A DNA stretch of 64,000 nt, taken from Bilabrum cf. latius. Lineage: Eukaryota. The notes under the pieces are model-generated. The model was not told the DNA's origin and searched no databases. It saw only the letters and a list, made by a program, of their open reading frames with translations. Positions 18,684-54,000 of the stretch are shown piece by piece. The stretch spans positions 186,001 through 250,000 of the forward strand of contig OZ237737.1 in assembly GCA_965178125.1 (NCBI GenBank), written 5' to 3'. Every line of letters begins with the position of its first letter. The first letter of the stretch is position 1. The translations under genes were made by a program, and so were the position numbers.

Positions 18684-19280
18684 TTATCTCTCTACGCTTG
18701 CCCCATCAGCACCACCCTCGGCGGGTGCTCTTGTAGGGGATGCCTCTTCGACTGGTGCAGCCGAATCAGTTCCCTTCTTTTGGATAACAGATCCAAACAA
18801 TGCCAACCGATACACAACCATTCTGCCATAAAAGTCACCAAGGCCCTTGAACACGAGCCGCATGCGGCCAACGGCAGCTTCGAAGGGGCCTACGGCGAGC
18901 ACCTGCTCGGTGGCCACCTCGGTCGGAAACACGGTACATCCAGGCAACCAGTCACTCTCATCCGCCAATGCAGCCTCTCCAGCGTCTGTAGATACCTACA
19001 ACTCAATTTCATTAGCACCAAATCCACCCTGGAACTGCACGTGCAAGTGTGTCGGAGCAGTGTGTCTTCGGAGGCGAATTTCAACCCAGTGTGACTCCCC
19101 TGCCTCCGATGACCAAGATCCCTCCGGTTTTGATGCATCTAGCGCTAGTTTTGGCCCGTGCTTCTTCTTGCTCCCCCCCAAGCAGGAGCTACAGCGAACT
19201 TTGATATCCTCAACTCTCGTCAACTCCACAGATATATCCTCACCGCGACCTCCGTCCACTCCACCTGAAGCAGATGCCAT
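18684..19280 (-). CDS. NR2C2AP: NR2C2-associated protein (TRA16)-like galactose-binding-fold protein
   Basis: W.S..G..HW, VQFQGGF and DFYGRMVVYRL motifs lie on both sides of an in-frame TAG at 18996. Ends in TAA at 18684. Confidence 0.8.
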
Positions 19281-19432
19281 TGTTAACTACTCTCAATTCT
19301 TGCGTGGATGCTGTCCTTCCGTCCTTTGGCTGCAGAATAGCCAAATTCGATACCATTCTCCTTTGCGGAACCACTTTTTCGCGGCGCCGGCCTAGGCCCC
19401 AGAAAGGGCCCGCCGGCACTCATTGCCTAGCG

Positions 19433-20427
19433 ATGGCTTCTTCAGGGGCATCTGCCGCGCCTGATGGTTCCGGGACCATGGCAACTATTAAGACATATGC
19501 TGTTGGTGACGGAAAGGGGAGGTAGTACTACGCTTGGCTGGGTGCCGCGTGGGGCCTGTCGACAGTGATGCTCTTCAACCTAATGAGGCGTAGACCAATG
19601 ATGTTCGGTGAGTACACGCTCATCAAGGCTGTTCCTTTCCGTATCATGTATTTGTTTCTTAGGGTTTCCCCTTTAGAGTAACCTTGCTTGCCTCTGCTTC
19701 GCCTGCTGCTGGTTGCGCAGAGCCTTGGATGCACGTTGGAGCTGTCACCGTGGTTAGTGCTGGGCTCTATCAGGTAGGTGCCGCCCTCGAAGACACTCGA
19801 AAGTATCAGGATAAAGAAAGTCGAGCGTATTTGCGAGCTCCGGAGTGGCTTGGCAAGGAGGAGGCGTGGAACGGGATCCGACTGGACGGTCGCGAGCAGG
19901 CCATGCGCCTCGCCGCAGTGAGAAAGGCCGTGGTCCACCTGGACGCGCAGGCCATCGAGGCTGGCGAGATGGAGAAGCCCGTGAGCTCCCGGCCCGCCGC
20001 GGGCGCCATGCAGGCCCTCCGCTCCATCCGCGCGCTGTCCCAGAAGTGCCGCGACGAGCTCAAGGCCGCCGCAGAGGCACAGGGCGAGGAGCTCCCCGAG
20101 AAGGTTAGGGTCTCGCCCGAGGACGAGGCGCGCGTGGCAGAGGCCGTGGCTCGATTGCTGCTGCAGGGCATCGGAGGGGAGGGCAGGGACGTGGGGCCGA
20201 GGGCGGTCCTGAGGCTGCAGGCAGCGGCCAAGGACACGGCCGGGTGGCTGCTGCGGCCGAGCGGGGACTCGGATTCCCACCCGCCGGGGTCTCTCTTGGC
20301 GGAGTAGCTTGATGGTCTTGCGGGTCACGAGGTGACGAATGACGTGGTGAGGGAGGTGGTGGCGGCGTGGAGCGCGGCGTGCGGCCTCTCGACCGAGCAG
20401 GCGATGGCCGCTGCGGGACGGCAGTGA
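19433..20427 (+). CDS. Complex I subunit B14.5b/NDUFC2-like N-terminal domain with ~200-aa C-terminal extension
   Basis: After splicing (intron 19608-19720) it reads WLGAAWGLSTVMLFNLMRRRPMMFEPWMHVGAV, resembling plant-type B14.5b (GALLGLG.QMYSNALRKLPYMRHPWEHV). TAG at 19523 and 20305; TGA at 20425. Confidence 0.6.
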
Positions 20428-20683
20428 GAGGAGCATGGCGCATTTGCGTGCATGCGGGAGCACAGGGGAGACTCAGGCGCTGCGACTGTCCTCGACAGGT
20501 GATTGTGATGCTTGTGTTGATGACCACAAGCGAGAACGCGTCGCATTCCTGCTGCACTCGACTGTCAGTCAGTCTCGGTTGCGCCACCGGACCTTGTCAT
20601 CATCACACTCAGCCAATGGGCGAGCGAATTTACCATTGCGATCCACCACAGCCGAGTCCATTGATCGCAATAGTGTTGCAGTT

Positions 20684-23617
20684 ATGGAGGCCGTAATCAT
20701 AGGCTACAGTGCCCGCGAACTCAGCATCGGCGGCTTGGCATTCTTGTGCTTTTGGATCGGCTGGCTGCAGTTGAGCTCGTTTTGGGCTGTTTGCGCCGCT
20801 GCTCTGGCAGTTTTCCTTGCAAACATCCCGACAAGGCAGAAAACAGAAGATGAGCAAATTGATAGCGAGCTCAAGAAAGAAGGTAGCCACCTCCGCCTGC
20901 TTCGACCACTCAGGCTCAACGACCTCGACGCGCGAGACAGGCCGCAATGGCTTGTCTCGCAGGATCATGACCGCGTTCGGTGGCTGAATATGGTGCTCCA
21001 GGGGGCTTGGGTCAACGTAGGTGATGCGTATGAACCTATGCTTCGCGATATGTTGTCTGGCATGCTGAAACCAGTCTCCAGCATGGTGGGCCCGCTAGCT
21101 CGCTTCATCCCAGGCGTATCGGCCTCTGACATCCGCATGCGCTGCGATGTAGTTTCGTTTGGTCGAAGCGCGCCGCAGTTTACGTCTGCGCGAGGCCGGC
21201 CTGTGGACGAGGCTACCGGTGTGCAGGTGGACGCCGAGTTGGACTGGTGGCCGGGAGCTGTGCCCGAGCATTTTCCCCCGCGGGCAGCCACGGCCCCGGA
21301 CGACGAGGAAGACCACCACGACGCGGGCTCAAAATCCACCGCAGCCGAGAGGGCAGAGCGCCGCGAGCTGGAGCGCATGCGCCAGGAGGCCCACCGCGTG
21401 GGGCTCGTGGTGGCCATCTCAGCGCACGTCGGGAGGGTCCGCCTCTTGGCCGTCAGAGCCGTCGTGAAGAACCTCCGAGCGATCGTCCGGCTCTCATTCG
21501 AAGGCCCCCAGCCCACCGCCCCGTTCTTCGGCTCTTTGGGCATCTCCATCGTGGGTACCCCCCGGGTGGACTACGACATCTCTGCGTGGGAGAGCCTCCA
21601 CCCCCTGGACCTCTGGTTCGCGAGGGACCTCCTGGATGGGGTCATCCGGAATCAAATATCCAACCTGCAGGAACCGGCCCGCATCTCGATCCCGCTGGCG
21701 GGGTCCGATGCCGCCGACGAGTCGGTCAGGCAGCGGGCCCCGGAGCTGGCCCCGGCAGACTCCCAGGTCGCAGCGGTGGCCATCGTGCGCGTGCGGGGGC
21801 TGGTGCTGGACCCTGCTGGTGGCCAGGCCGCTCTCGCCGGGTCTGCAGAAGCAGCCCTGCTGGCAGAAGAGACTGTGCTCCCATGGGGCGCCGGGAGCGT
21901 GGATGGGTAGGATGAGGATAGCATGGGGGGGAAAGGAGGGGACGGAAGGGACAGAGGGGTGGGTCTGGGCGCAGCGGGACAGGCGGGCGGGCAGGGACTC
22001 GGAGTTGGAATGGGTCCGAGGAGCCCGGGAGCATTGCGCGGCGGCGTGCTGCCCCCAATCGCGGCTCCCGTGGAGGTGCCTGCCGGTTCTCTTGCCACCC
22101 TCAGTGCCGGGCTGGAGCTGCTGGGGAGGGCAGGGACCGTGCAACGGCAGGAGGCGAGTATCTTGCCGGTGGGCTCTGGCGTGTCGCGTGCAAGTGCATC
22201 ATCCGGCGGCGTGGCTGTTTCCTCCGCAGCTTCCTCTTCTTCCCGTTCTGCCCCATCTGTGGGCGAGTTCCTCTTCCTTCTGTCCGACAGCCAGCTGCCC
22301 CAGGCCAGGGCACTCGCGCAGGAGGAGCAGGGGGCCATCCAGGCAGTGGCCAAGAAACTGGCGGACAAGGACGGCGGGAAACACGGCTCTGAGGCGAGCA
22401 AAGAAAGCGACCGGCGGTTGGGAGCGCCTGCGGGGCCACCCACTGACATTCATGGGCTGCCCGCAGCGACGCGCAACAAGCTGCGCAAGCTAGGCGAGGA
22501 TGTGGCCAGGCGGGCGCGGGGAGCCACAGCGATCGTGCAGGCCGCGGGGAAGGTGAGGGGGGAGGCCAGCGGGCAGCATGGATCGAGAGAAGAGGCTGGT
22601 CCGGGTGCGCCTGGCAGCAGGAGTCAGCCGTTCTCCTTCTCGGCCAGGGTGCCGGTGGCCGGCCCTGCTGCCTCTGGGATGGGCGTGGGCGTGGACGGCC
22701 GCACGGCGCGCTGTTCCCTGGCGGTGCTGAGTCACAGGGGCAGGACGGGCGAGCTTAGGTGTGACGTCACTCTGCTGGCGCTGAGGCGGGCCCCCGCTCT
22801 CACCCGGGGACCGCCTAGCGGTGGCGGGGGCACGGGTGCAGACACGGCTCGAGTGGAATCGGAAGCGGGTGCGGGTGCGGGTGCGGGTGCGAGCGCGGGG
22901 CGGGACAGCAGCCAGGGCATGGGGCGGACTGCGGTCGAGGCTGAGGACCGTTCGGGGCTTGGGCTGCTTGCGAGAACGTCGGGGGCCGGTGAAGATGCAT
23001 TGCGCGGTGGTGCGCCTAGCCGGGGAGCCGGAAGTGCAGCGGTCCACGATGAGGTGAGGCATCGGCTCCGATCGCTGGCGGGGTCTGTGCCCGCGGCATG
23101 GCCCACACGAGGGGTGCTTCCAGGTCTTCTGGTGGTCCGTGTGACGAGTGCACGGCTGGAGGGGGCGGGGCTGGAACTCCCCGGACCTCGTCTTCCGAGC
23201 GGGTCGCTGTCCCTGCGGCTGGGAGCCCGGTCCTCGTCCTTGGGCCCGGTGGGCGTGCGATCCGCCGGTGTGACGAGTGGTGATGCGGGTGCCGGTGGAC
23301 AAGGGGGTGCGATGAGGCCTTCGGCGGCTGCAAAGTATCGGTTGAGTTTCGACGAGGACGCCAGGCTGCTGGCGCGTGACGCCGTCACGCAGAGGCTGCA
23401 GCTCTCGCTGTCTCTGTCGAGGGAGGACGGGACAGCGAGAGAGCGCGATGGCGAGCTGCACGGCTCGGTGGACCTGAGCCAGGTGGCGCTGCAGCCGCGG
23501 CTCTTCCTGCAGGCTCGGGTGCCTGTGCGAGCATCCAGGTCCGGGGAGGCGGGGCAAGTGCTCCGGGGCACGATTGGGATCACGCTGACGCTGCGGCCAT
23601 TTGTCGGCATCCCCTGA
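20684..23617 (+). CDS. Extended-synaptotagmin/tricalbin-like SMP-domain protein with degenerate C2 domain(s)
   Basis: N-terminal hydrophobic hairpin; SMP signature RPQWLVSQDHDRVRWLN..L..AW, SFG..APQF, PFFGSLGISIVG.P.VDY; C-terminal C2-like region. Joined across TAG 21908; TGA at 23615. Confidence 0.75.
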
Positions 23618-23747
23618 ATGGGAATTGATCGATTACTTCTAACTGTACGGTTAATCGCAGATCTCCCAACACGCTGTGCACGGTTGAGGCAGTTGCAGCG
23701 CACGAACCTGCCAGTGTCCACGCCAACGGTGGCATCATTAGAGCAGC

Positions 23748-25467
23748 ATGATAGCGGCAGCACTTGCTTTGGCTGCATGCGCAGCAGGGTCTGATACTGT
23801 TCAGATCCCTGGTCTTGGCGGAGTCGCCGGGAATGTGCTGCAAAGCTCCCGCGAGTTTCTCGGAATACCGTACGCCAAGCCCCCAATCGGTGACTTGCGC
23901 TGGGCCGCGCCTAAACCCTTCGGTGGCTGGAACGGCACAAGAAATGCGACGCAGTATTCGCAGAATTGTGCTCAGTATGGATCGTTCAACCCACCCATGG
24001 GCAATACAAGCGAGGACGTTAGTGACCCACGGAATGAACTCTTTGTGTGATTCACATGTTCGACTTGGTGTTCTCGCTACGCAATACTCGTTGTTGTAGC
24101 CATATCTATCCACGCAGTGTCTGTACCTGAACATTTTTGCGCCAGTGTAGGCACCAGTGTTGCGAGCATCTGCTGTCATGCCTTCGGCGGAGCCGCTTCC
24201 AGTTCTATTCTACATGCACGGGGGTTGTTACGAGAATGGCGGGTCCAACGAAGAGCGATTGAACGGGACTTACTTCATCCAACGAACAGGGCAGAAGGTC
24301 CTTGTCGTCGTCGTGAACTACAGACTGAGTATCTTTGGTTTCCTCGGCGGCGACGCGCTCAGGGACGCCGGCGCTGGAGGGACCACGGGCAACTGGGGGA
24401 TGCTGGATCAGAGGCTGGCGCTCGAGTGGACCTACAACCATATATCTGCCTTCGGTGGCGACCCGAATAACATCATGATATTCGGGGAGAGCGCAGGGGC
24501 GGGCTCTGTGGCCAACCACTTGGTGCGCCCCGCCTCGATGAAGTACTACCACCGAGCCGCCGCCTAGTCGGGTGCCTTCGCCGAGTGGATCGCAAACCCG
24601 GGGCAGTGGGCACAGGCACAGTACGACAAACTTCTGTCCATCACGGGTTGCAAGGATCCGTCCTGCCTCCGCGCCCTAGACGCAGATGCCGTAAAGAAGG
24701 CGGGCCCGGAGGCAGGGTATGTCCCGTCCCCCGTCCCGCTCGAGGGCTTCCCCTCCCAGCTCAGGTGTGTGTGGGCACCCGTGGTGGACGGAGTGGAGCT
24801 GAAGGCGCACCCCGCCACGCTGGCGCGGCAGGGACAGCACGCCAACGTGCCGTTTTTGCTGGGCACCAACAGGGACGAAGGGGCCTCCTTCATGGGAGGC
24901 CGCACGCTCAAGAAGGCCACTGCCGCCGACCTGCTAAAGTACCTGACGCAAGACCTGCAGCTGAACCAGACAGTGGCAGATGCGGCTCTAAAGATTTACA
25001 ACCCCGATAGCTTCAACGACACGGACTGCTGCAGCCGGTACTTCTGGGCAGCGACCCAGATGCTGGGCGACCTCACCATGACGTGCGCTGCACTTGACGC
25101 GGCGACCTGGTGGAAGCAAGCAGGCGGGGCCCCGGCGGTGTACAAGTACTATTTCACGCACGCCCATGCCGGCAGTCCCTTCGTCTCTCATGCCTCGGAT
25201 ATCCCCTACGTCTGGCACGTGGACCCGCTCTTGGATCCGCAGGCGGGAGGGACCGTGGTGTCCGACCACATGAACGCCTACTGGTCCAACTTCGCGAGCA
25301 CGTCAAACCCGATGAAGGGGCCCCAGGCGAGCGCGGATCTGCCTCAGTGGCCCGAATTTCAGGCAGGGAACAAGGTCACCCTGCACATTGGGGACAGCTC
25401 CTTCCCGGCGCCGTCCCACGAGACCAAGTGCGCATTCTGGGGCTCGGTGGGCTACCTGCCTCGATGA
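23748..25467 (+). CDS. Secreted type-B carboxylesterase/cholinesterase-family enzyme
   Basis: Signal peptide, FLGIPYAKPPIGDLRW, SED|CLYLNIF (intron 24018-24117), HGG, NYRLSIFGFL, GNWGMLDQ, FGGDP, FGESAG, HRAAA[TAG]SG, GTNRDEG, SHASDI. TAG at 24148 and 24565. Confidence 0.95.
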
Positions 25468-30719: not shown

Positions 30720-30788
<69 letters not shown>

Positions 30789-32035
30789 GCGCTCCCACCT
30801 GCGCCCGCCTGCTCCTCCTTGCCCTACCCAGCGGTTAACCCCTGGGCAGCAGCACTCGTGGCGCTGGCTCGCAAGGCCATCCGCAGGGCCTACTGCTCAG
30901 ATACCATGGACGGCTGCAGGGCGCTGACGACGCGGCTGCGGCTCCTCTTTGCCTTCCGGCTCGCGATACTGCCAGTAGTGCGGCCCGTTCGCGCGGCCGG
31001 CACGTCATAAATAGGGCGTTGCTTCACTTCGGCAACCTCGTCGTCATCCTCATCGTCATCGTTGTCGCCATTGTCACCGTCATCGACCTGGTCCTCTTTC
31101 TCGTCTGCATCCGGCAGTTCCGGCGGCTCGTACTCAGCGAACTGCCTAGGTTGCTAGTAGGCCATGTTGTACCAGGCTCGGGGTAGGTCTGGCCCTGAGC
31201 TTCGAGTGTATGGCTCGCGGTGCTCTCTCCAAAAACTTTCGTCGTCCAAAAGGAGAGGCAGAGCAGTTCTGCGGTCGCAATACTAGAACTGCCAAAAAAG
31301 GCCGTGCTTTCCCTCCCAAGGGCACACCGCAAGATCCTAGATGTACAGGACGGCAAGAGCCCACTCTTCAGAGATGCCATGATCCTGCATGAATTTCCTG
31401 TACAGCTTTCTTTCTTCTTCGCCGTGCAGCAGGCTCTCGTCAACAACCAAAGCAGGCCATCGACCTGTCGGCCTTTGACAAGGGGCCATAACAAACTGGG
31501 CTGGAACCGCCCGCAAGGCCTTGCAGTAATCTTTCGATTCTAATCGAATGCTTTCCAGTTGCTCCAGCGACAATGGAGCTTCACTTTCGCTCTCGCTACC
31601 GCCGTCGTCCGTTGAGCAAGATTCAGATTCAGAAGCACATGCTTGGCCCTACTCATCGGCCGCTGAACCCCCACTCTCCATCTGACTATCATTTGAAGGT
31701 ATTTTCTATTCAGCTGCTGCTTTGGCAACTTCCTGCTAGATTGCAGAGAGGGGAAAACGCCAAAGATCGATTCGCGGTCCATTGGTGCAGGGAATAAAGC
31801 GTGTCTCTAGGTATGTCAAGGGTGTATTAGAGCAGCTAAAATATTAAGTATAGCCGAGGAAAATATCCGTGATGCTTACTTCGCGCTGCTTTGCTTGTCT
31901 AGCGGCCGCTTCGTCAACTTGCTCCAGGATGCTTGCTTGCATGTCACCCTCGCCATCACTGTCATCACTTTCGTCCAGAATCGCCTGCGCGTTGGACAGA
32001 GATTGATTTACTTCGTCCTCTTCGGAGTCGCTCAT
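28100..32035 (-). CDS. Large acidic/low-complexity protein with PWWP-like segment, UIM-like motif and repeat-rich C-terminus
   Basis: Exon 1 32035-31880, intron to ~31737, then one frame to TGA 28100 across 7 TAGs (31706, 31659, 31337, 31283, 31154, 30890, 30824). QFVMAPCQRPTGRWPALVVD is PWWP-like; SEQQALRMALRAS is UIM-like; NLS-like KRKR and KRPRL. Confidence 0.6.
28368..29191 (-). repeat. 33-bp coding minisatellite, ~25 copies, encoding (ASSNAGGGEGS/P)n
   Basis: Unit GAAGCAGATCCCTCCCCACCGCCTGCATTGCTC (+ strand), head to tail with few variants. Confidence 0.97.
30537..30787 (-). repeat. Coding microsatellites: (CCCCTG)n = Gly-Arg repeat and (CTG)n = poly-Ser
   Basis: Visible runs at ~30537-30600 and ~30722-30787. 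Confidence 0.9.
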
Positions 32036-32166
32036 GCCTACGCCTCGCTAGCCAGAGCGGACAACTGAAAGGTACTACCTGCGCATCGGGTAGGTTCCGC
32101 AGTAAATTCAGATCCGCCGATGGAACACGTGCCTAATTCGAAACGTTGGAACCTTTTAGCGCAAAG

Positions 32167-34685: not shown

Positions 34686-34797
34686 GCTGTGGCCACGGTA
34701 TGGCCTTGTCTCCACGAGCGCCAAACGGAACTCAAGTTGCACTGCACGAACGTACGAATGAACGAGACAGAGCAATTCACCGCAAAAAGTGGGTCAG

Positions 34798-37700: not shown

Positions 37701-38097
37701 GGTCTGCGTGCTGGCGCTGCAGTGCATGAGCCCGCGGCTGGGCCTGGCCTGGCGAGAGTTATGCAGCGGTGTGACGAGTGAGGGGTTGGCTGGGGCGGTG
37801 CCCTCTGGAAAAGAGCAGGCGGGAGGAGGAGTGGAACACATGGAAGAGCGAGACAGGTCCTGGCTGCCCGAGCCCGCTGCCCTGGAGTCGTGCGGGCGAG
37901 TGGCGGCGCCTGTCGTGGCGGATATCGCTGGCAGGCTGACTGCATCCCTTCCGAGGTGTGGCGAGGGCCAATCAGCCCGCCAGCTGGTCTCAAAGGTCCG
38001 TGCTCTGCGGGCGCTGGGCAGCGGGCCAGGAGCAGATCCGTCGATGGGGGCGCTCACGGGGCATACTGCGCTTGATACTGTGATCATGGCGTCGTAA
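34798..38097 (+). CDS. GCFC-domain protein (PAXBP1/GCFC2/ILP1 family, spliceosome disassembly)
   Basis: RWEQEAMERG and VMEDVRGEDYADIQRVLGRFEALR...EAYVAGFVSEALPELLRPYV..EV.GW.P match the GCFC domain. Three ORFs join across TAG 35371 and 35947; TAA stop. Confidence 0.75.
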
Positions 38098-38315: not shown

Positions 38316-38900
38316 ATGGCTAGGTCAAGTACTGTGGCGGGCGCGAAGCGCAGGAAGAAGTCGAAGGTAGTTCGTCGATAGGTTGCGGCTGGGAGCGCAG
38401 CACCAGTGCAACGCAGGGCGAGGCCAGGGCAGCGTGCGCTGCAAGAAATTCGTTATTATCAGAAGAATACTGGTCTCCTGATTCGGAAATTGCCCTTCGC
38501 AAGATTGGTAAGGAACCACTCGTTCGCGACGTTGTCCCGTGCTGGAGATCGCTATATATTCGCCCCGTGCTATGCTCTCATTTTGTCTCGCAGGTTCGCG
38601 AGGTAACCCATTATTACACTGGAAGCGATTTTCGCTGGCAAGCTAGCGCGCTGATGGCTTTGCAAGAGGCTAGCGAGGGGTACCTTGTGGGCTTGTTCGA
38701 GGACGCGTGAGTTTACACATATTTCGATCATGACATCACCCATCAATGATGCGTTCGTGTAAATCGAAGGTTATTACAAGTATCAGCTCTTTTTCTGCCG
38801 CAGAAATCTGTGCGCCATTCATGCGAAGCGTGTCACTATCATGGTTCGCGATATCCACCTCGCCAGAAGAATTCGGGGCGTATCGGATGCAGCTGTTTGA
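38316..38900 (+). CDS. CENH3: Centromeric histone H3 variant (CENH3/CENP-A)
   Basis: Three exons (38316-38507, 38594-38706, 38804-38900). H3 fold with a non-H3 N-terminal tail, PFARL (H3 Q68 lost), FRWQ (F84W), EDANL (T107A) and loop 1 one residue longer. TAG at 38379. Confidence 0.88.
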
Positions 38901-39247
38901 TGCAATAGGTGGCTAAATGCGCACTGCGCATCGAAATGTAACGGGTTGTGCAGGGTGCCCGGGGAGGTTGGGCAAATCGGGTCCGCGCGTGGATCGCCAC
39001 GTGAGGATTGCTTCAGGCGATGGCGGTAACTTGGTGAAGGCGATGGATACTTTGAATAATTCTGAGAGTAACAACGTTTGTTCGACATCAGGCTCCGTGC
39101 TATCATTCCCACGTCCCCCCACAAATGAATAAGGCACGACTCCAGGTGAAACACAAGGGACGCTCCGGTGGCTGGGACGCTGGCAATGCCTGGCCCACAG
39201 CCTGGCAGCTAGGAAGAGGAATTTCGTATCAGCACTGCGCCTGCCTA

Positions 39248-40373
39248 TTACTTCCCACCCTGGCTCCCAATGAGCCCACCAACTAGCCTCTGCACCCAAG
39301 CCGCCCCGCCCTCTTCTGCCGCCCTTGTACCGGCACTTGCCTCATCCCCCTGCCCCTGCCCCTCCCCCTCCCCGTGCGTCCTCACCTCAGGCCCAGCGCC
39401 CGTCATGGGCATCCCGCCCGTCCCCTGCTTCCTACCGTGCTTGTTCCTTGCCTGTCTCCGCTCCCTCCTCGCCGCGCCCCTCTCTTCAGACTCCCAGGGA
39501 TCCGGGGGGAGCCCATGCACGCGGATCCCGGGCAGCAGCCGCCTCAGGATCAGGTCGACGAGAGTGTAGATGAGACTCTAGAGAACCGCGGGGCAGTTCA
39601 GCATGAAGTGCAGTCCATAGACAGCCTTTCCAACCTCCTCCTTGCCCACCACCGCCCCGGCCGCGGGCAGAGACGCGTGCATGAGCCTGGCCAGCAGCTC
39701 CTCCCGGAACCCCCACATCTCCTCCTGGCTCCACGGGTCGCCGAACTTCATGAAATCGCCCCCTGGCCACAGCAGCTCGCGCACCAGGGCGAGATGGCCG
39801 CCCACCGAGTCTCCGGAGAGGGACCGCTTGTACCAGTCTCCCAGCTGGGCCGACATTGTTCCCTGGTACAGGAACACGCCTAGGGAGCGGACGGCGGACA
39901 CGGCGGAGCGCTTCAGCAGCCCCTGCTGCTCCACCTGCAGCACCGTGGACACGAGCCGGAATATTTTATTCTCCGCCACAGCGAGGTCGTGCGGGCTCAG
40001 GATTGGGCCCGGCCCGAACCGCGCCATGTCGGCCAGTCTCGTCCGAATCACCCTGGGAGTCGCTGCAGAGCCCGCCTCCACCACCCAGCTGGCAGAGTGC
40101 CCGTGCCCGCGGGGAGTTGCCGGCCCCCTCACCGCGCCCACGCTGGACGTACCGAGTGCTGCGCCGGCAGAGGCGGAGTGCTTGTGGTGCCCGAGGTGAC
40201 GAGCCGACCTGGCTTGTGCCCTGGCCAGCGCACTGCCACCCTGTGCGGCTCCTCCTCCTCCTCCTCCGCGGAATGACACGGTGTGGCGATGCTTCGACAG
40301 TGCCTGCTGCTTGTCCCCACCACCCAGCACACCCGCAGCACCTTCGCCGCCATCTCCATCTCCGGCTCCACCT

Positions 40374-40406
<33 letters not shown>

Positions 40407-45103: not shown

Positions 45104-45235
45104 CCTACAGTTTCCCTTGGCGAGTTTTCGTGTTGCTCTTTGTAAGGTGTTAACCAAGAAATCAAGAGTGTGGCGACCTGTCGTCCGGCCAATCAAGTGG
45201 GTCTGTGCCTTGGTTAGAGCTCCTGGTAGGCTACA

Positions 45236-47087
45236 ATGGACGCCAAGACGAGAGAATATGCTGTAGCAGCTGCTGCAGGGGCAGGTCTTGTGTTAGGAAG
45301 CGTTTGGCTGGGTGTCCAGGTCGGCAAGCAACTCGCAAAATCTGAAGCTGCAACTGCAGGACCAGCCGATGCGACAGCGGCAAGCAGCAGCCGATCGGTC
45401 TCGTTCAGAGATGCTTCATATGCGTAGACACCCCCCAGGGCAGTAAAGTAGTCCGCGACCAGCGATGTGAAGCGGGGCTTCCGCGGCGGCGCAACGTCAC
45501 CCATGATGCGCGGCTTCGGCACGATAGGCGTATTCGAAGAGGGCAGCAACTCCAACTTGGTCATAGGACCACCTGCCTTTGATCTTGACGGGAAAGCCGG
45601 CTAGGCTGGGGATGATGAGGGGCTAGAAGGCTCCCCAGGGCCCGGCGGGGCCGCGCTGGGCGAGGGCACCGGCTCAACAAGCGTGGTGCGCAAGGGCAGC
45701 CTGGACGGGCCCGTGCTGCACCCGCAGGAAGGTGCAGCGGGTGATATTGCTTCCTCAGGGGACGGCGTTGCCAGCCGCACGCTGCAGCAGAAGCTCGAGG
45801 ATGCGGTGGGCAGCAACCCTCAGTGCGTGCGGCCCATCATCATCGTGGTAGGGGGCGCCAGCGGCAGCGGCAAGACCACCATCGCGCAGGAACTCTAGAA
45901 GCACCTGCCGCACCACAAGGTAGACAGCATCAGCCAAGACTCGTACTACCGCTCCCTGCCCGAGGGAACAGACGCCAGCACGTACAACTTCGACCACCCC
46001 GAGGCGATCGACTTCGACCTGGTGGTGCAGCACCTCAAAGACCTCGCCAAGGGCAGGGACGTGGAGGTGCCCAAGTACGATTTCACCACGCACAAGAGGC
46101 TGGAGGGCACCCGCCTCGTCTCGAAGCCCTCTGTGGTCATCCTGGACGGAATCTTCACGCTGTCCATCCCTAGCGTCAGGAGGAACTGCGACCTCACCGT
46201 GTTCACGCTGGAGGACCTCGACATTTGCCTGGCTAGGAGGCTGAGAAGGGATCTGCAGGAGAGAGGCAGGGACGTAGACAGCGTGCTTAGGCAGTACCAC
46301 CGGTTCGTGAAGCCGGGCTACCACACGTTCATCGCCCCCAGCATGCGGGAAGCCGACCTGATCATCCCGAGGTGTGAGTATGTGTGTAACAGCCCAATGG
46401 GCATCGATCGATCGACCCCCAATTCTGTTGAGAATGCAGTGATGCCGTCTTGGGTTTCCTGCGCTGCAAAGCTCCCGGGGAAGCATCTGTATCCACACCT
46501 GTCGTGCCCTCCCCTACCCACCCACCCCCGTCCGCTGCCCTCGATGACCCCCGCTCTTTGATGACCCTGCCCCTTTCCACCCCCGTGGTCCCACCCACCT
46601 CGCAGCGCGGGACAACAAGCGGGCCATCCAGATGCTGGCCCGAGACATTGCCACGCAGGTACGGAACCTCGAGCGAAAGTTCCGCCGCCTGCTTGCAGGT
46701 GGAAGCACCAGCGACATTCAATCGGTGGGCAGCGGCAGCATCGAGCACGGCAGGTCGAGCGGGAGGCACCCAGGATCCATGGCGGTAGGGGGGAGCGCAG
46801 CCGCCGCCACCCCGCCCGAGGGAGAGATGGAGTCTTTGTTGGTGAAAGGTAGTCGGACTGGTTCTGCTGCAGGGGTCGGGATGGAGGAAGGCGGGCCAGA
46901 GGGGGAGTAGGCCACTGGAGCTGCTACCGGTGGTGCTGGAGCTGGCGATTCGGTAGGCGACCAGACCCCTCGGCTGGATCTGGATGAGGAGACACTCCGG
47001 GGCGATGACCCCAGGCTGGATGCGCCCCAGCGGCCTGTCAGGAAGGAGAGCGACGCTTTGGACATCTCTGACATGAAGCAGGGGTGA
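45236..47087 (+). CDS. UCK: Uridine-cytidine kinase with N-terminal hydrophobic anchor
   Basis: GGASGSGKTT, ISQDSYY, YNFDHPEAIDF, VPKYDFTTH, LARRLRRD.QERGRD, QY.RFVKP, ADLIIPR. Intron 46374-46605. TAGs at 45425, 45449, 45602, 45896 and 46908; TGA at 47085. Confidence 0.9.
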
Positions 47088-47426
47088 TGCGACTAGATCT
47101 ATTCTAGCGTGCAGGCTCATACAAGTCTAGCCAGGGATGCTGCGTAGCATGGTGGCTCCAGGCGGTGGCTTGCAAGGAGATGTGAGGGGTGTGAGGGGTG
47201 TTTCGAGACAGGGTGCGTGCACCCATGGGTGGCTTTTGCTTGATTTAAGCGGAGCTTATGCAACAGCAATGAATTCATTTCTTAGGTCGGTGAGGAGCAA
47301 ACCAGCAGCAAAATCCATGGGGGCACCCCATTGCTCATCAATCACCACCACACGCACAGCGGCGCGCATCCTACTGCTCACAGTAATAGTATACCACCAC
47401 ACGCACAGCGGCGCGCCTCCGACTGC

Positions 47427-48533
47427 TCACAGTCTAGCCCCTTTCGCTAGAGAGCCTGACGATGCCCCGACGCCCGCCCCGCCTGCAGTACCCGCAGTAG
47501 ACTACCCCTCCCTCCCCTCTGCTCCCTCAGCTCGCGCCTCTGTTCCCTCACCGGCAGCCTTCTCGCGCCGGGGCAGATCCACCACGATGGGCGGCTACGA
47601 AGGGACGTATCGCAGGGTGCAGGTCGACGCGTTGATGTACGCGACTCGGCCTGGACCCACGCGAGCCTCTTCACTCGTCACATCCGCATCATCGCTCGTC
47701 ATACCCTCTGCTCCCGACAGCGGGCCGCTGGCAGTGACGCCGTAGCCCTCGTGTATGTGCCCAAAGGCAGATATGAGAGGCCTTATCCTCCCCTCGATCT
47801 CTTTGAGCAAGTCCACGTCTCCCGTGAGCATCCCTTGCGATGTTTTGTCCCCGTGTCCCACGGGTGGCCCGTGTGTGAGCAGAATATCCGTGTCATCAGG
47901 AATGGTGCCGTACAGCGCCTTTGCAGGGTCCCCTCTTTCCAAGTTGAATGCCCAATCATAGAAAAAAGCGCTCTCCGGTGATCCGAAGAACTTGTATCCC
48001 ATGACGGTCACGCTTTCGTTGTTGAGGTAGTGGATGCGGGCGCGCTTTGCAGCTTCGGACCGCAGCAGCTGCTCCGTGTCTGCGACGTTGACCTTCCCCC
48101 ACATCACCCTCGGCATGAACCGCTTCTTCCGGTCGTCGAAGCCGTTCTTATCCAGCGATATGTCATGGTTGCCTGCGATCACAACTACGGCTTCGGGTTT
48201 GCAAGGCAGCGCCGCGGCCCAATCGACGAACGATTCGATCTGGTCCGGCTCGCCGACGTTGGTGAGGTCACCACAGTGCACCAGAATGTCCGTATCCATT
48301 GGAATAGACTCTGGTACTATTTTTCCGTGCATGCCATGCGTGTCTGAGATGAATGCTAGTCTGACGCACTCCTTCGGCTTGGCCCCCCTCCTCGTTCTCG
48401 GGTCCCATGTTGAGGTGCCTTTGAGCGGCACGCAAGAAAACTGGCCCTACTTTTCCCACCATGCCCCTGGGTCTTTGGTATCCAATCGACTTGTTGACCG
48501 AGTCCCGGTCTCGCTCGAACCCACAGATGCCAT
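47427..48533 (-). CDS. Metallophosphoesterase, MPPED1/2 (239FB)-like
   Basis: ISDTH, HCGDLT, IAGNHD, LLTHGPP.GHGD, FGHIHEGYG, YINASTC...[TAG]PPIVVDLP. TAGs at 48447, 47595 and 47502; TGA at 47427. Confidence 0.9.
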
Positions 48534-48792
48534 TGTTCTGATGCGAAACCCTACGCCTGCAGCTCAAACAGACTGCCTTCGCTTCGCGATCAAAGAAACA
48601 GAAATCAATGCAGCCAAGGTAGTCACTCTAGACTATATTGTGTCTTAATGCGACCTGTGCGGCACTAGTCAAATCTAATTATGCATTTTCTTGGACTTGC
48701 CTTCGGCGATTCGGAATGTTGCCTTGTTGACCGTAGGTAAACAGACCCAGCCAGCAGACGCAGGTGCTTCAGATAAGGTCGTGCCCCACCCG

Positions 48793-50988
48793 ATGCACCA
48801 GGTTTTATTTCGTGTGAGAGCTCGATGGGGTCTTCGCCATGCGTATAAATTGGCACAGGCTGGGGCCACGCGTGGAACAACGTCACCGTGGCACCTGTAG
48901 ATGAGACCCTTTGGTCGTGCCGCCCCGATGGAAGCTCGCAAGCCGCGAAGTAGAGCTGCGGGTGATTCCACAGATGGCGGCAGGACCGTTGAAGCTGAAA
49001 TATAGGGGGAGCACCCAACAACCTTGTAGTCTGCCGACCAGTTCGCTGAGGCACTCCTTCAGGAGAGCTGCAGCAGACTGGCGCTCTTAAAATCATCAGA
49101 AAATAAGCCATTCTTGCCAACAGCTGCAGTTGGCAAACCCATAGTAGATGCTATGTCAAATCGAGGGAGTGGCAACCGCGTCTCGCTAGCATTCGACAGA
49201 CGCCACCACAAGGCGATTTTTTTGGAGCGCGGCAGCCGAACTGGTGTTCTGTTATGTGCATCTATATGGGGTGGAGCTAGAGGCTAGGCTGCTGCCCCGG
49301 TTCAATTTGCATCCGGCAGCCGAGCTGGTGCGGCAGAGGTCGAGCAGCGGCCTGCTGGCAGCGGGTGGTCTGGCCTCGTGTCGGGGCAAGCGTCTGCTGA
49401 GTCCTCGCCGCCTCCCTCCGTGGAAGACGTCGTGGGCGAATCCTTAGAGCTGTCTCGGGCGATGGGGAGCGCAACAGCGGCGATGGGGTTATGGAGGAGC
49501 GGCGGGGCTGTCGTGATCGGGGCAGACAGCACCTTCGGCTTGGAGCATGCCCATGCCGACGGGGCAGGTGCCTCGTCAGGGAACACAGGCACAGACTCAA
49601 ACAGCACGCACGGCCCTGATGGACTGACCCTTCCCGCGGTGGGTCTGTCCCCAACCGGGGACTCTCAGGGGTTCGGGAGGCAAGCAAGGGTGAAGCGGGC
49701 CTCCCAGCGGAGGACGGACCTCATGCTGGACGTGGCCGACTTCATTGGGGGCCTCCGGGGTGTTGTGGTGGCCACCGGGTGCGGTGGTGGCATGACTGCG
49801 GAGGACAGCGACGTGCTCTCTGCGGCGTGCGCCTTCTCCACCGGTCTGGGCCGGTCCGCCGCGGGCTGCGAGAGGGCGCTGGGGAGGGAGGACCTGGCGG
49901 TTGCAACCGCTGCGGGGACTGTCAGTGCGCTGCAGTCTGCGGTCCACGTGGCTACTGGCGTGCTCAGCGGTGCGAGCCACCTTGGGGAACAACGATAGGG
50001 GAAGTGGCAAGGTGGGGCTGCTTCTAGAATCCGTGCGCCCACGGCCGGTGAGGCAGCGGAGCTCCATGCGAGCGGAAGGGTCCCTGTCAGCCCGCTTCGG
50101 GGCCTGGAAGCTACCGTGGTGGGCGCTGGGTTCGTGGGGCGAGCGGTCACTCAGATGCTGCTGGAGCTGGGAATCGCGCGAGTGAAGCTGGCAGAGCGAT
50201 CGAGGGGCGCCGTAGCGCGGGCGAGGCACGCGCTGGCAGACGGCAGGGTCGAGATAGAGCACGCAGAAGGGCACGAGCTGCTCGGGCTGGACTCGGAGCT
50301 ACTAATCCCGTGCGGGCACGGGCCGCTGGTCACCCCCGCGAACGCGGGGACTGTCGGCGCGCGCATCGTGTGCGGGCCCCAGCTGGGCGCGATCTAGCAG
50401 CCTACCGTGGTGTCGCGGGCCCTGGCGAGCAGAGGACGGTTCGTTGTGCCAGCAGAGGTGGCGGGTAGGGCCGCGCTTGGGGCGCAGCTGGCGGAGACCG
50501 ACGGCATCTTGGCTGCTGCGCTTACGGACGACCCGAGAGTGGCGTTGCAGCTGGCGGCAGGCAGCGACGCGGGCATACCCTCAACGACGGAAAGACTGCT
50601 AGAGCCCGACTCCACGGCAGGGCGGTGGCGGACGGGCGACGGGTATGGCGCGCTGGTACACGGTCTAGAGGACACAGAGACGCCGGGAGAGTCGCATCCC
50701 ATGCTAGGAGGGGGCCACATGACCGCGCTGCTCGCCACTCTGCTGGAGGACGGGTGGCACAAGGGTAGCTAGCGTGACCAGGCGAATGCACGGGCAAAGC
50801 GACTGGACTAGCGGCTGGAGCGTGGCACGGGTCTGGACGCACATGGGCGGTGGCTGCAGTCGGTTGTGTACGGGGGCTGGAAACCGGGGGACAAGGCGCC
50901 TATCCGCAACTCGATCGGGCGGGGCAAGCTCCCCAAGAGCGTGGTGCGGCACAGAAGGCCTGAGCACACCGATGAGCAGGACTGGTGA
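48793..50988 (+). CDS. Divergent Leu/Phe/Val dehydrogenase-like protein, probably mitochondrial
   Basis: One frame across 8 TAGs to TGA 50986. Recognisable segments SLELSRAM..., DFIGGLRG.VVA...GGMTAED, VVGAGFVG (Rossmann), SELLIPCGHGPLV...ARIVCG. Arg-rich N-terminus. Confidence 0.65.
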
Positions 50989-51092
50989 TCGCAAGCTTCG
51001 TGAAATGCATAGGAGCAGATTGCTACCCGTAGATTGAGTAGTGACGCGCAGTAATGGGCTTTAGTGTAATACAGTATGCGAAAGGTAACATT

Positions 51093-54000
51093 TTAACAAC
51101 AAAGGTATGAGCAACAAAACCACGATCTCCAACCACCGTGTGGATGAGTACCACAGCATCCTCGGCTGCTGAGACCCGGCAGGCCCTGCTCTCCCGTGTC
51201 CTGCTTGGAGGCGATTACGTGCAAGCCTCTCCTCAGCGGCGTCACCACGTCCTGCACCTCCTCGGGCACCAGGGTCAGCAGCTCCCGAGCGGACTGCAGG
51301 GACTCTTGCAAGGCACCTGCCTCTGGCCAGTAGTAGATGGCAACTCCTAGAGAGAATGCCGCGGCGAATACCCAAGTGACCACCATGACAACGTGCATGG
51401 TGACGCTCAGCTGCCCCCCGAAGTCGGAGTCCATGCGAGTGAGGGCGAGGGCGTAGGCATCCCGCATGTGAGGCGACTCCAGCCCAGCCATGCGCAAGAT
51501 TCTGTCTCTGTTCTCCTCGGTATCTATGGCCACCTGGGCTCTGGCCGACGCGGAAGGGGGTTGCATCTCGAAGGAAGGCGCGGCTTGCGACTGCAGCTCC
51601 TTGGCAACCGACTGCAAGGCCACCACAGCACTAAGCAGTCCATGAGTTGCCGCCCCGCCCGCCACAATCTTGCATTCCCTCAGCTGCAGGTCGGGGTTGC
51701 TTTCAATGGCTACGGCCAACGAGCTGGCGTTTGTTGCAGCCCTCACAGCAACTGGCACCTCATCTGGTCCTGCATCTGCCACATCAATCCAGTGTCGCGT
51801 CGCGAATTCCTCCTTGAACACTGGATCGCAGGCATCTTTCAGCAGGACCGCGTGGCCGGGCGAGCTGTCGTCCAGTGCGGGCAGCTCGGTCGTCACGTCC
51901 ACCTGATCTGACCTGGTCGTACCCCCGAACTGGATCAGCTCCGACTTGGACGACAGCAGCGCGTCCTGCTGCACCATCCGCTCGTAGGCATCCAGCTGCA
52001 GATCCGAGCCGGCGGGGTAGAGGGCCATGCCCAGCGCGCTCCTGACCATTGCAGTGGCATGCACGGCCGAATGCTCGACGGAGGCGATGCGGTAGGACGC
52101 CATTTCTGCCGAGATGAGTCTAGCTCTGAGGTAAAGCACGTTGAAGAGCAGCAGCCCCAGCACCAGGATGACGGGAGACATAAAAAGTGAAACCTTGTTG
52201 CACACGAAGTTGGAGGACGAGGTGAAGGGTCGAGCGGGCGGCGGGATGGTCGTGTCGCTCGACATCAGCGCGTAGCTGTGGGCCGCAGAGTCTCCGCCCG
52301 CAGGCACCGCAGCGCCATCGTTCAGCTCACCGTGCTTGAGCGATGAGTGCAGCGGCACGACCTTGTTGCCGCGCTTACCGCCCCCAGTGCTCTCCGTGCT
52401 GTGGCGCACCATTTGCTTGGATTCGCCTTTGCCTTCTCCCTGCTTGACCACGCCGGACTCGATGTCAACGTACTGCACGCCGCCCATGGAAGCCATCTGC
52501 CTGGATGCGTCTTTCGTCTACCTCGCCGCGTGCGACCTCACCCTCCTTGCGACTTGCTTCTCCGCCGCTCGAAGCACCGCCCTGTAGGCCTCCTCGCCGT
52601 CCTCCTGCTGCACGAACAGCCGCTTCTCCTCCTCTTCGTCGTTCATGCCACCGCGCCCATCGGCGTCCGCCATTTGCACGGACTAGTCTTCTCTCTCCGC
52701 CACCAGCTGGTCCAGCCCCGTCTGTGCCCTCTCCCTCAGGGCCTTGGCCAGCCTGCGGGGGACGTGCAGCAGCAGCATGGTCACGGCCTGCGTGCGCTCG
52801 GAAATGTCACGCACTGCGGCGTAGAAAATGGGAGTGGCCACAAGCACGCACAGCGCGAATGCCACCGTGCCTGCTATGATGAGCTCTGTCTGCACGACCG
52901 GCATGGCACGCACAAAGTCCTTCTGCCGAATGGCCAGGCTGTGGTTCATGCCGCTCCGAAACGCGTCGTAGTTTGCGTACAGGAAGCGCCAGGCCACCGA
53001 ATCGTGCGAGTTGACCTGCTCCACGGGCAGTTCCGCCAGCCGCTCCATGGCCTGGTGCACCTCCAGGCCGAGATCCACCAGGCTTGTCAGCCGCGCGCTG
53101 GTTCCGTTGGAGGCCAGGTCAGCCGACGGCTGCGTGACGGCAATGTGCCGCATCAGCTCCCAGTCGAATGCCTCCTTGCCCCCGCTCTCCTGCAGCTCGA
53201 ACAAGTGCTCGTGGTGGTGGCGCATGGAAGAACTGTGCGCCGCCATGCGCGCCAGGTCGTGAACTGGGTCCTGAGGGTCTGCCGCGTCCAGCTTGTCGTA
53301 GACCTGGAAGTACCCGTCCACGTCCTGCAGCTGCGTCAGGCTCCCGTTCGACATGTCAACCACACGTCGGGCCTCGCCGTACCTGCCGAGCTCCTCTACG
53401 TACGACATGCCGTACTCGAAGTCCAGCATCCTCCAGCCTGCCTCTGTGAGCGCTTCTGTCAGACCAGAAAGCCGAGAGACAGCGTGCCGGAGCCAGATCA
53501 GCTGCACAGCACCGATGACAATCACCGCCAATACTAAGCCCACCAGCGTGAGTCGGGTACGGGTCACCTCGGGCTCCGTGGTCTTGGCCAGCTGCCTGAT
53601 GCTCTTGCGGACCACGATGTTAGCATGGGAGCCCATGCTTGCCATCGACTGCGCGTCTCCAGATTTCCCCATGCCCGCCATAAGGGACGACCGCGGCTGA
53701 TGCACAGCCTTTGATATGCCCTTTGCGATCGTGTACAAGCCGCCACTGGTTCGTTTCCCGAAAGAACGCCCCGCACCCATGGTCGGACTCTGCATGCTTG
53801 CTCGACGGGACGACGGCGGGCTGCCGCGCACCCTCTCCGTGATCCGCACCCTTGGCTTGCCATGATGGCTTGACCTCCTGTGATGGTGCCCGTGTGAGGG
53901 TCCTTGCAGGCTGTCCTTGCTCGAGAAACGGCTGTGCATCGTGCGCTTGCCGTCCTTCGTCACCACGATCCTTGCCTTGGAGGCGACTGCATCGATCGCA

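What the first reader, a model, noticed from the sequence alone, without database searches (positions are those of the whole stretch)
18684..51095. TAA appears to remain a true stop (uncoupling from TAG)
Four genes end at TAA (18684, 38095, 39248, 51093), each downstream of the last recognisable domain. No internal TAA was found in about 50 kb of coding sequence, although CAA is used freely and TAG about 75 times. This separates the code from the common UAR=Gln code. Caveat: high GC would make TAA-Gln rarer than TAG-Gln, and four termini are a small sample.
Basis: inference. Interest (0 to 1): 0.7.

Follow-up and report, generated by a model that had tools for sequence, protein, structure and literature searches.

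The report
UAG reads glutamine, UAA still stops
This GC-rich eukaryotic DNA reads the stop codon TAG as glutamine but still ends genes at TAA and TGA, a rare split in meaning between two codons that nearly always change together.

Summary

**Codon counts.** In 18 long ORFs (16,582 codons, 49.8 kb) TAG is in frame 62 times, TAA 0 and TGA 0. If TAA were a Gln codon, the CAA:CAG ratio (109:497) predicts about 14.

**TAA ends.** Four genes end at TAA exactly where reported: 18684, 38095, 39248 and 51093. Coding signal collapses after these four TAAs as it does after 12 terminal TGAs (mean -0.37 and -0.36). It persists after 60 internal TAGs (+0.17).

**The one apparent exception.** An in-frame TAA at 31844 lies between two coding segments. 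It sits inside a 147-nt GT..AG intron that one RNA contig splices out.

**Support from relatives.**
- A metagenome relative (L001) is collinear with the window, also carries in-frame TAG, and ends the orthologue of one TAA gene at TAA.
- A 68%-identical relative of the largest TAA gene ends at the same Cys-Cys C-terminus.

**TAG = Gln.** This rests on a Gln column in acetylcholinesterase structures and one in Rab11 structures, and on codon partners in L001.

**Status.** This is the NCBI table 15 type of code, known from Iotanema and a few ciliates, here in a GC-rich, intron-poor, non-ciliate-looking genome of unknown lineage. The tRNA and eRF1 could not be examined.

The parts
18684..18686 (-). 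TAA stop of gene E (18684-19280, 198 aa, weak F5/8 type C match)
   Evidence: The next in-frame TGA is 15 codons on. Downstream coding LLR is -0.52. The L001 orthologue also ends at TAA.
38095..38097 (+). TAA stop of gene K (34798-38097, 1,099 codons, no Pfam family)
   Evidence: The next in-frame TGA is 127 codons on, past another TAA. Downstream LLR is -0.22. RNA contig X5 record 10 runs unspliced through the TAA to 38101. The cenH3-like gene starts on the same strand at 38316.
39248..39250 (-). TAA stop of the PXA/PX/Nexin_C gene (39248-45103), followed directly by TAG
   Evidence: The next in-frame TGA is 142 codons on. Downstream LLR is -0.16. No joint is reported near it in the three RNA runs.
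51093..51095 (-). TAA stop of the TmcB-like gene (51093-57992, with further exons upstream)
   Evidence: The 313-codon open extension is the antisense of gene N. Downstream LLR is -0.57. Relative P0001 ends at the homologous Cys-Cys.
31733..31879 (-). 147-nt GT..AG intron of gene I, holding the only in-frame TAA (31844-31846) that lies between coding segments, and one TAG (31736-31738)
   Evidence: RNA joint 31731->31879 in X5, one contig, side 30 nt. Sequence. The spliced ORF is uninterrupted; intron GC is 0.45.
24565..24567 (+). In-frame TAG of the carboxylesterase gene, at a position that is Gln in acetylcholinesterases
   Evidence: In the alignment to solved acetylcholinesterases the TAG position aligns to Q before SGA. 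L001 has GAA (Glu) here.
60101..60103 (-). In-frame TAG of the Rab11-like gene, aligned to Gln of the top Rab11 structure
   Evidence: In the one alignment printed (top hit, chain 3bfk_A), the TAG position aligns to Q in the stretch K-A-Q-I-W-D-T-A-G.
59346..59348 (-). TGA stop of the Rab11-like gene, directly after a C-terminal Cys-Cys
   Evidence: The role of a terminal CC as a Rab prenylation motif is recalled knowledge.
38898..38900 (+). TGA stop of a cenH3/H3-like gene (38316-38900, two RNA-supported introns)
   Evidence: Joints 38506->38593 and 38706->38804 are seen in X5, X6 and X7. The spliced ORF ends 7 residues after the R-I-R-G motif.

Best explanation
The window is nuclear DNA of a GC-rich (62%), gene-dense, intron-poor eukaryote. 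It uses a genetic code in which UAG alone has been reassigned to glutamine, while UAA and UGA remain the terminators. This is the same assignment as NCBI translation table 15.

Shown here:
- TAG is in frame in nearly every long gene, is present unchanged in transcripts, and behaves as Gln in comparisons.
- TAA never occurs in frame, and it ends genes at points where coding signal stops.
- TGA ends most genes.

Inferred, not shown:
- UAG is read by a tRNA-Gln with anticodon CUA, which cannot pair with UAA. The simplest origin is a mutated copy of tRNA-Gln(CUG).
- eRF1 has lost or weakened UAG recognition while keeping UAA and UGA recognition.
For: **1. Codon counts.** In 16,582 in-frame codons there are 62 TAG, 0 TAA and 0 TGA, with CAA 109 and CAG 497.

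**2. Coding signal.** I used a leave-one-gene-out 3-periodic Markov score over 40 codons downstream.
- 60 internal TAG: mean +0.174, with 49 of 60 above 0.
- 12 terminal TGA: mean -0.358, with 12 of 12 below 0.
- 4 terminal TAA: mean -0.368, with 4 of 4 below 0.

**3. No split ORF joined by a TAA** among all 328 TAA. The single candidate is intronic.

**4. Stop tally in the window:** TGA 17, TAA 4, with 2 genes running off the window. TGA ends the Rab11-like gene right after a terminal CC, and ends the H3-like gene 7 residues after R-I-R-G.

**5. Relative L001.** It is 8,142 bp, 58.6% GC, and collinear with window 16685-24540 at 67-73% nucleotide identity over the five long blastn segments.
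- Its orthologous ORFs carry about 8 in-frame TAG and 0 TAA (ORFs there were split at TAA/TGA).
- The orthologues of D, g19 and F end at TGA, and the orthologue of E at TAA, as in the window.

**6. TmcB-like C-terminus.** A full HMMER search gave 22 hits at E <= 0.001. P0001 (68% identical) ends with the same Cys-rich tail and final CC.

**7. TAG = Gln.**
- TAG aligns to Q in acetylcholinesterase structures and in Rab11.
- Six L001 TAG pair with window CAG x3, CAA x1, AAC and CGG.
- A likelihood over 12 TAG partners favours Q (-30.7) over K (-36.1) and E (-36.2).

**8. TAG is in the mRNA.** Transcript-like contigs of X5 cover 15 TAG codons with 0 differing letters:
- 40418-45102: 5 of the 6 TAG of the PXA gene.
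- 48754-51079: 8 of 8 TAG of gene N.
- 34803-36312: 2 of 2 TAG of gene K.
The same runs show five GT..AG joints that DNA run X1 lacks.

**9. TAG as terminator.** Tails after the last TAG stay coding-like in 15 of 15 genes (LLR 0.03-0.37). Nothing suggests TAG still terminates.
Against: - The sample is small: four TAA termini here and one in L001.
- For K and PXA no homologue corroborates the C-terminus. The search with K's last 465 residues found nothing. PXA's tail is low-complexity.
- For E, read-through would add only 15 codons, so homology cannot decide.
- The coding score is modest, and 11 of 60 TAG also score at or below 0 downstream.
- Window TAG codons pair in L001 with Glu codons 3 times in 6 and a Gln codon once in 6. 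The carboxylesterase and Rab positions are Gln or Glu in the wider families (recalled). Gln over Glu therefore rests on a likelihood difference of about 5.4 nats plus the Rab11-specific Q.
- The intron that removes the in-frame TAA of gene I rests on one contig of one run with a 30-nt side.
- No tRNA-Gln(CUA), tRNA(UUA) or eRF1 could be examined.
- No protein-level evidence exists.
Confidence: 0.85

Rival explanations
1. Both UAA and UAG encode Gln (the common UAR=Gln code). UGA is the only stop, and TAA is simply too rare in a GC-rich genome to appear in 50 kb.
For: - GC3 is 0.62-0.88 in the genes, so A-ending codons are disfavoured.
- All four TAA-ended frames stay open for 15-313 further codons before a TGA.
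Against: - The expected TAA count is 9-14 from the A/G ratios of comparable codon pairs, against 0 observed.
- Coding score falls after 4 of 4 TAA, as it does after TGA.
- The 313-codon extension is the antisense of gene N.
- Relative P0001 ends at the homologous CC.
- The L001 E orthologue also stops at TAA, followed by AT-richer sequence.
- K's extension would run into the cenH3-like gene.
Confidence: 0.05
2. UAA has a context-dependent dual meaning: a stop near transcript ends and rarely a sense codon inside genes. This is what is reported for Blastocrithidia and Condylostoma.
For: - Such codes exist (PMC5304391 passages; PMC12153298 abstract).
- A rate below about 1 in 5,000 codons would not be seen in this sample.
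Against: - There are 0 in-frame TAA in 16,582 codons here, and none in the orthologous ORFs of L001, which were themselves delimited at TAA/TGA.
- The only candidate is in an intron.
Confidence: 0.07
3. In-frame TAG is not Gln. It could be another residue (Glu, Lys, Leu), or the TAGs could be removed or changed before translation by introns or editing, or the genes could be pseudogenes.
For: - Window TAG pairs with Glu codons in L001 3 times in 6.
- One of the paralogue pairs shows AAG against TAG.
Against: - Likelihood favours Q by 5.4 nats over K and E.
- L001 TAG pairs with window Gln codons 4 times in 6, in conserved contexts.
- Q is the aligned residue in the Rab11 and acetylcholinesterase structures.
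- Transcript contigs carry 15 TAG unchanged and unspliced.
- The genes are expressed, and their order is conserved with L001.
Confidence: 0.03

Closest known systems
Iotanema spirale (Fornicata) nuclear code: UAG=Gln, UAA and UGA stops (PMC5304391, passages read)
   Same: Same assignment: UAG is sense and read as Gln, UAA is kept as a terminator, and no in-frame UAA is found. The same mechanism is predicted there: a tRNA-Gln(CUA) derived from tRNA-Gln(CUG), plus altered eRF1.
   Different: - That paper says UAA stayed the dominant stop, whereas here TGA ends 17 genes and TAA 4.
- That case rests on a transcriptome. Here it is 64 kb of genomic DNA with RNA support.
- The lineage of this window is not known. 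I could neither show nor exclude that it is a fornicate.
Ciliates with UAG-only reassignment to Gln: Hartmannula sinica, Trochilia petrani, Protocruzia tuzeti; NCBI table 15 (PMC11687900, passages read)
   Same: UAG=Gln with UAA retained as a stop.
   Different: This window does not look like a ciliate macronuclear genome. It is 62% GC, a contiguous stretch of about 23 genes on both strands, with 86-232-nt GT..AG introns. The usual AT-richness of ciliates and the gene-sized chromosomes of phyllopharyngeans are recalled, not tested.
UAR=Gln codes (Tetrahymena and other ciliates, hexamitin diplomonads, oxymonads, some ulvophytes, Amoeboaphelidium protococcarum as reported; PMC5304391 and PMC6299283 passages)
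   Same: A stop codon is reassigned to Gln. Reassigned codons probably arise by C-to-T change from CAG.
   Different: In those codes UAA is also Gln. Here TAA was tested and is not found in frame, and it ends genes.
Other UAG-only reassignments: rhizarian exLh (UAG=Leu), Scotinosphaera (UAG=Ser), phyllopharyngeans (other residues) (PMC5304391; PMC11687900 passages)
   Same: UAG is uncoupled from UAA.
   Different: The residue differs. Here Gln is favoured.

Membership tests
UAG=Gln / UAA+UGA=stop code (NCBI table 15 type) | UAG occurs in frame in conserved genes and corresponds to Gln | tested here: met
   - 62 TAG in 16,582 codons.
- Q is the aligned residue in acetylcholinesterase and Rab11 structures.
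- 4 of 6 L001 TAG pair with window CAG or CAA.
- Q is the most likely residue.
UAG=Gln / UAA+UGA=stop code (NCBI table 15 type) | UAG is present in the mature mRNA, neither spliced out nor edited | tested here: met
   Transcript-like contigs of run X5 cover 15 TAG with 0 other letters. One further TAG (31736-31738) is intronic.
UAG=Gln / UAA+UGA=stop code (NCBI table 15 type) | UAA is absent from coding frames | tested here: met
   0 in 16,582 codons against 9-14 expected. No TAA-joined split ORF among 328 TAA. The candidate at 31844 is intronic.
UAG=Gln / UAA+UGA=stop code (NCBI table 15 type) | UAA is used as a terminator at true gene ends | tested here: met
   - 4 genes end at TAA, with loss of coding signal after it.
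- The C-terminus is shared with relative P0001.
- The orthologue in L001 also ends at TAA.
The sample is small.
UAG=Gln / UAA+UGA=stop code (NCBI table 15 type) | UGA is a terminator, not a sense codon | tested here: met
   0 in-frame TGA. 17 genes end at TGA, including Rab11-like after its terminal CC and the H3-like gene.
UAG=Gln / UAA+UGA=stop code (NCBI table 15 type) | A tRNA-Gln(CUA) is present and no tRNA with anticodon UUA | not testable with these tools
   No whole genome is held. The window has only tRNA-Glu(CTC). L001 has no tRNA.
UAG=Gln / UAA+UGA=stop code (NCBI table 15 type) | eRF1 is changed so that UAG is no longer recognised | not testable with these tools
   No eRF1 gene lies in the window or in L001.
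UAR=Gln code (NCBI table 6 type) | UAA in frame at Gln positions | tested here: not met
   0 in-frame TAA.
Context-dependent stop/sense codes (Condylostoma, Blastocrithidia type) | The same codon is both internal sense and terminal stop | tested here: not met
   TAA is terminal only. TAG is internal only, as far as can be told: tails after the last TAG stay coding-like in 15 of 15 genes. A rare dual use is not excluded by 50 kb.

The most novel reading that the evidence does not exclude
This may be a eukaryotic lineage outside the ciliates and outside Iotanema that acquired the UAG=Gln, UAA=stop code on its own. Its only relatives that I found in the protein collections searched are unnamed metagenome fragments. 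The code is shared by at least two organisms that differ by about 30% at the nucleotide level (the window and L001), so it would be an established trait of a clade rather than a one-off. Genomic DNA and RNA runs exist for this organism. That would make it a non-ciliate case in which the predicted tRNA-Gln(CUA) and the eRF1 changes can be read directly from a genome.
Probability: 0.45. Interest if true: 0.7.

Novelty: new member of a known kind. Interest (0 to 1): 0.6.

Why it matters
UAA and UAG almost always keep the same meaning. The 2017 paper that first described exceptions counted at least 13 coordinated changes of both codons (PMC5304391 abstract). Uncoupled cases are few: Iotanema, rhizarian exLh, Scotinosphaera and some ciliates (PMC11687900 passages). 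Each new, independent case tests two ideas. One is that UAG can be captured alone by a CUA-anticodon tRNA. The other is that eRF1 can lose UAG recognition without losing UAA recognition.

There is also a practical consequence. Standard-code gene callers cut this organism's proteins into fragments. Its relatives appear in public collections only as pieces of 51-345 aa from a protein of about 2,300 aa. Calling both TAA and TAG as Gln would instead over-extend a fifth of the genes. Annotation should use table 15.

Tried and rejected
- **Whole-genome tests** (tRNA census, eRF1, genome-wide C-terminal tally) were not possible, because no genome is held.
- **Rfam** at gathering threshold found only the tRNA-Glu.
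- **Word-based homologue searches** found nothing for E, for the TmcB-like C-terminal 474 aa, or for the last 465 aa of K. This says nothing about these proteins standing alone, because the length windows exclude fragments.
- **Protein Atlas** on the SPOUT methyltransferase gave only generic eukaryotic clusters and no lineage clue.
- **A simple codon-usage score** separated coding from non-coding poorly. I replaced it with a 3-periodic Markov score.
- **Sequencing runs:** no RNA holder was listed as such. X5-X7 were treated as RNA only after laying them showed GT..AG joints absent from X1. Table 8 is cut, so transcript 3' ends at the PXA and TmcB-like TAAs could not be read. A contig end at 38101, 4 nt past K's TAA, comes from one run only and is at most a weak hint.
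- **Literature:** searches found no paper describing a GC-rich non-ciliate with UAG-only Gln other than Iotanema. As I do not know the organism, I cannot say its code is unpublished. The 2013 Protist paper and any later genome paper on Amoeboaphelidium were not in the library.
- **Phage reading** (code 15 is used by some phages) was considered and rejected. The window has spliceosomal introns, a histone H3-like gene, Rab11 and about 23 eukaryote-type genes.
Full report
**What the window is**

The window is 62% GC. Read with TAG as sense, it resolves into long ORFs on both strands. Pfam finds ordinary eukaryotic families:
- GT2 glycosyltransferase
- SPOUT RNA methyltransferase (PF02598, E = 4e-97)
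- type-B carboxylesterase
- ankyrin repeats
- PXA/PX/Nexin_C sorting nexin
- uridine kinase
- metallophosphoesterase
- TmcB-type TPR with a weak PAS match
- DEAD-box helicase

Smaller, intron-bearing genes were found by eye. The Rab11-like gene is confirmed, and the histone H3/cenH3-like gene. The thymidylate-kinase-like and oxysterol-binding-like genes are named from motifs I recognise, with no tool test. The gene at 19205-20427 has an orthologue in L001.

Three runs carry spliced forms of these genes. Their joints are GT..AG at 34157-34262, 38506-38593, 38706-38804 and 46373-46606, and in one run 31731-31879. DNA run X1 lacks all of them. The genes are therefore transcribed and spliced: this is eukaryotic nuclear DNA with few, short introns. 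No whole genome is held. The only RNA gene in the window is tRNA-Glu(CTC) at 7218-7289.

**The observation**

In 18 ORFs from first ATG to stop (16,582 codons, 49.8 kb), the in-frame counts are TAG 62, TAA 0, TGA 0, CAG 497 and CAA 109.

In the two other frames of the same ORFs, TAA occurs 33 and 33 times, TAG 96 and 101, and TGA 261 and 260. In-frame TAG thus reaches about 63% of its off-frame density, while TAA and TGA are at zero.

If TAA shared TAG's meaning at the CAA/CAG ratio, 13.6 would be expected. At the lowest comparable ratio (TTA/TTG, 19/128), 9.2 would be expected. The Poisson chance of seeing none is about 1e-6 and 1e-4 respectively.

**Guarding against circularity**

ORFs bounded by TAA cannot contain TAA. 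A sense TAA would instead show up as two adjacent in-frame coding segments joined by a TAA. I scanned all 328 TAA on both strands.
- 104 have 40 TGA-free codons on each side.
- 13 of these have positive coding score on both sides.
- All 13 lie off-frame or antisense within a longer annotated ORF.

One real candidate appeared. The TAA at 31844-31846 (-) sits between a coding-like upstream segment and the 1,247-codon ORF of gene I. The DNA shows a donor GTAAGC at 31879 and a pyrimidine-rich acceptor ending in CAG at 31733. One contig of run X5 joins across exactly this 147-nt stretch (its shorter side is only 30 nt). The spliced form is an open 1,262-codon frame, and the intron is 45% GC. That TAA is therefore intronic.

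**Do the four TAAs end translation?**

After the TAAs, the next in-frame TGA lies 15, 127, 142 and 313 codons on. The sequence just after each TAA is AT-richer.

A 3-periodic third-order Markov score, trained with the tested gene left out, gives these results for the 40 codons downstream:

| Codon class | n | Mean score | Sign |
|---|---|---|---|
| Internal TAG | 60 | +0.174 | 49 above 0 |
| Terminal TGA | 12 | -0.358 | all below 0 |
| Terminal TAA | 4 | -0.368 | all below 0 |

The four TAA values are E -0.52, K -0.22, PXA -0.16 and TmcB-like -0.57.

The long open frame after the TmcB-like TAA is the antisense of the convergent gene N, with matching third positions. A full HMMER search with the last 474 residues found 22 relatives at E <= 0.001. 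The closest, P0001 (68% identical over the match), ends with the same Cys-rich tail and terminal Cys-Cys as the window protein. More distant full-length homologues carry the same CC..CC motif and then run on for roughly 30-110 further residues to their ends.

K's extension would run into the H3-like gene, which starts at 38316 on the same strand. An X5 contig runs unspliced through K's TAA.

**A relative with the same code**

A metagenome contig, L001 (8,142 bp, 58.6% GC), is collinear with window 16685-24540 at 67-73% nucleotide identity over the five long blastn segments. It encodes orthologues of D, E, g19, F and the carboxylesterase.
- Its ORFs also carry in-frame TAG: about 8 in the orthologous ORFs. 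They carry no TAA (ORFs there were split at TAA/TGA).
- The orthologues of D, g19 and F end at TGA, as in the window.
- The orthologue of E ends at TAA, followed by AT-richer sequence.

The stop tally is TGA 17 and TAA 4 in the window, and TGA 3 and TAA 1 in L001.

**What TAG encodes**

- In the carboxylesterase, a TAG aligns to the Q before S-G-A in acetylcholinesterase structures.
- In the Rab11-like gene, a TAG aligns to the Q of K-A-Q-I-W-D-T-A-G in the top Rab11 structure.
- Over 2,027 aligned codon pairs between the window and L001 (1,221 identical), the six L001 TAG face window CAG x3, CAA, AAC and CGG. The six window TAG face L001 GAG x2, GAA, CAA, TCG and CCC.
- Using the substitution pattern of these same alignments, Q is the most likely meaning: log-likelihood -30.7, against K -36.1 and E -36.2.
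- Two paralogous genes in the window (9807-12443 and 25872-27593, 340 of 391 aligned residues identical) share two TAG at identical positions.

The Glu partners keep Glu from being excluded outright. The carboxylesterase and Rab positions are Q or E in the wider families (recalled).

TAG is in the RNA: transcript-like X5 contigs cover 15 TAG with no differing letter. After the last TAG of each gene the frame stays coding-like in 15 of 15 genes, so nothing suggests TAG still terminates.

**Mechanism**

Shown: UAG is sense and best read as Gln, while UAA and UGA are terminators.

Inferred from established knowledge, as set out in PMC5304391 (passages):
- A tRNA-Gln with anticodon CUA reads UAG but not UAA, and is one mutation from tRNA-Gln(CUG).
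- eRF1 must have lost UAG recognition while keeping UAA.

Neither molecule could be looked at here.

**Comparison with what is known**

The assignment equals NCBI table 15. UAG-only reassignment to Gln is reported for Iotanema spirale (PMC5304391) and for the ciliates Hartmannula sinica, Trochilia petrani and Protocruzia tuzeti (PMC11687900 passages). UAG-only reassignment to other residues is reported for rhizarian exLh and Scotinosphaera.

The window does not look like a ciliate genome. It also differs from the Iotanema description in that TGA, not TAA, is the main stop.

The lineage is unknown. Its closest relatives in the collections searched are unnamed metagenome fragments of 51-345 aa, which is what standard-code gene calling would make of TAG-interrupted genes. 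Five literature searches turned up no matching description. Without the organism's name I cannot say it is unpublished.

**Verdict**

This is a new member of a known, rare kind of code. The main limits are the small number of TAA termini and the lack of tRNA, eRF1 and protein-level evidence.

Noticed in passing
window 9807-12443 (+) and 25872-27593 (-): Two paralogous genes of no known family (0 Pfam hits). They are 340 of 391 aligned residues identical at the N-terminal part and then diverge into different low-complexity tails. They share two TAG codons at identical positions.
   Followed up: partly
window 28300-29300 (-), gene I: A long tandem array of an 11-residue Gly/Ser/Ala/Asn-rich unit (about 27 copies) lies in the C-terminal half of a 1,262-codon protein of no known family.
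   Followed up: no
window 50988-51093: Genes N (+, TGA at 50986-50988) and TmcB-like (-, TAA at 51093-51095) converge with only about 105 bp between their stops. An RNA contig of N runs to 51079. The antisense of N gives a 313-codon open frame that mimics read-through of the TAA.
   Followed up: yes
window 38316-38900 (+): A histone H3/cenH3-like gene with a divergent N-terminal tail and two short introns (86 and 97 nt) sits between the convergent 3' ends of K and the PXA gene. It is spliced in all three RNA runs.
   Followed up: partly
window 39245-39250 (-); L001 7143-7151 (+): Stops come in tandem. The PXA gene ends TAA followed directly by TAG. The L001 orthologue of F ends TGA-TAA-TAG. 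I did not test whether this is more than chance.
   Followed up: no
window 32190-32215, 40244-40270, 42565-42595: Many long-range 'joints' and loose ends occur in both RNA and DNA contigs at GC-rich low-complexity repeats, for example 32201->40248 with other letters between. They look like assembly-graph artefacts at repeats, not rearrangements.
   Followed up: no
window 45102-45103: An X5 transcript contig of the PXA gene ends at 45102, one base short of the first ATG of the ORF (45103). The true start of this gene may therefore be elsewhere, or an upstream exon may exist.
   Followed up: no
window 57836-58927 (-): A 363-codon ORF with several predicted membrane helices lies upstream of the TmcB-like ORF in another frame. 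It resembles the N-terminal part of full-length homologue P0018, so the gene probably has at least one more intron or exon upstream.
   Followed up: partly
runs X1, X5-X7 on window 31600-51599: Part of the laid contigs match at 95-99% rather than 99% or more: 15 of 44 in X5, 11 of 51 in X6, 11 of 52 in X7 and 5 of 19 in X1. This may reflect alleles, strains or repeats.
   Followed up: no
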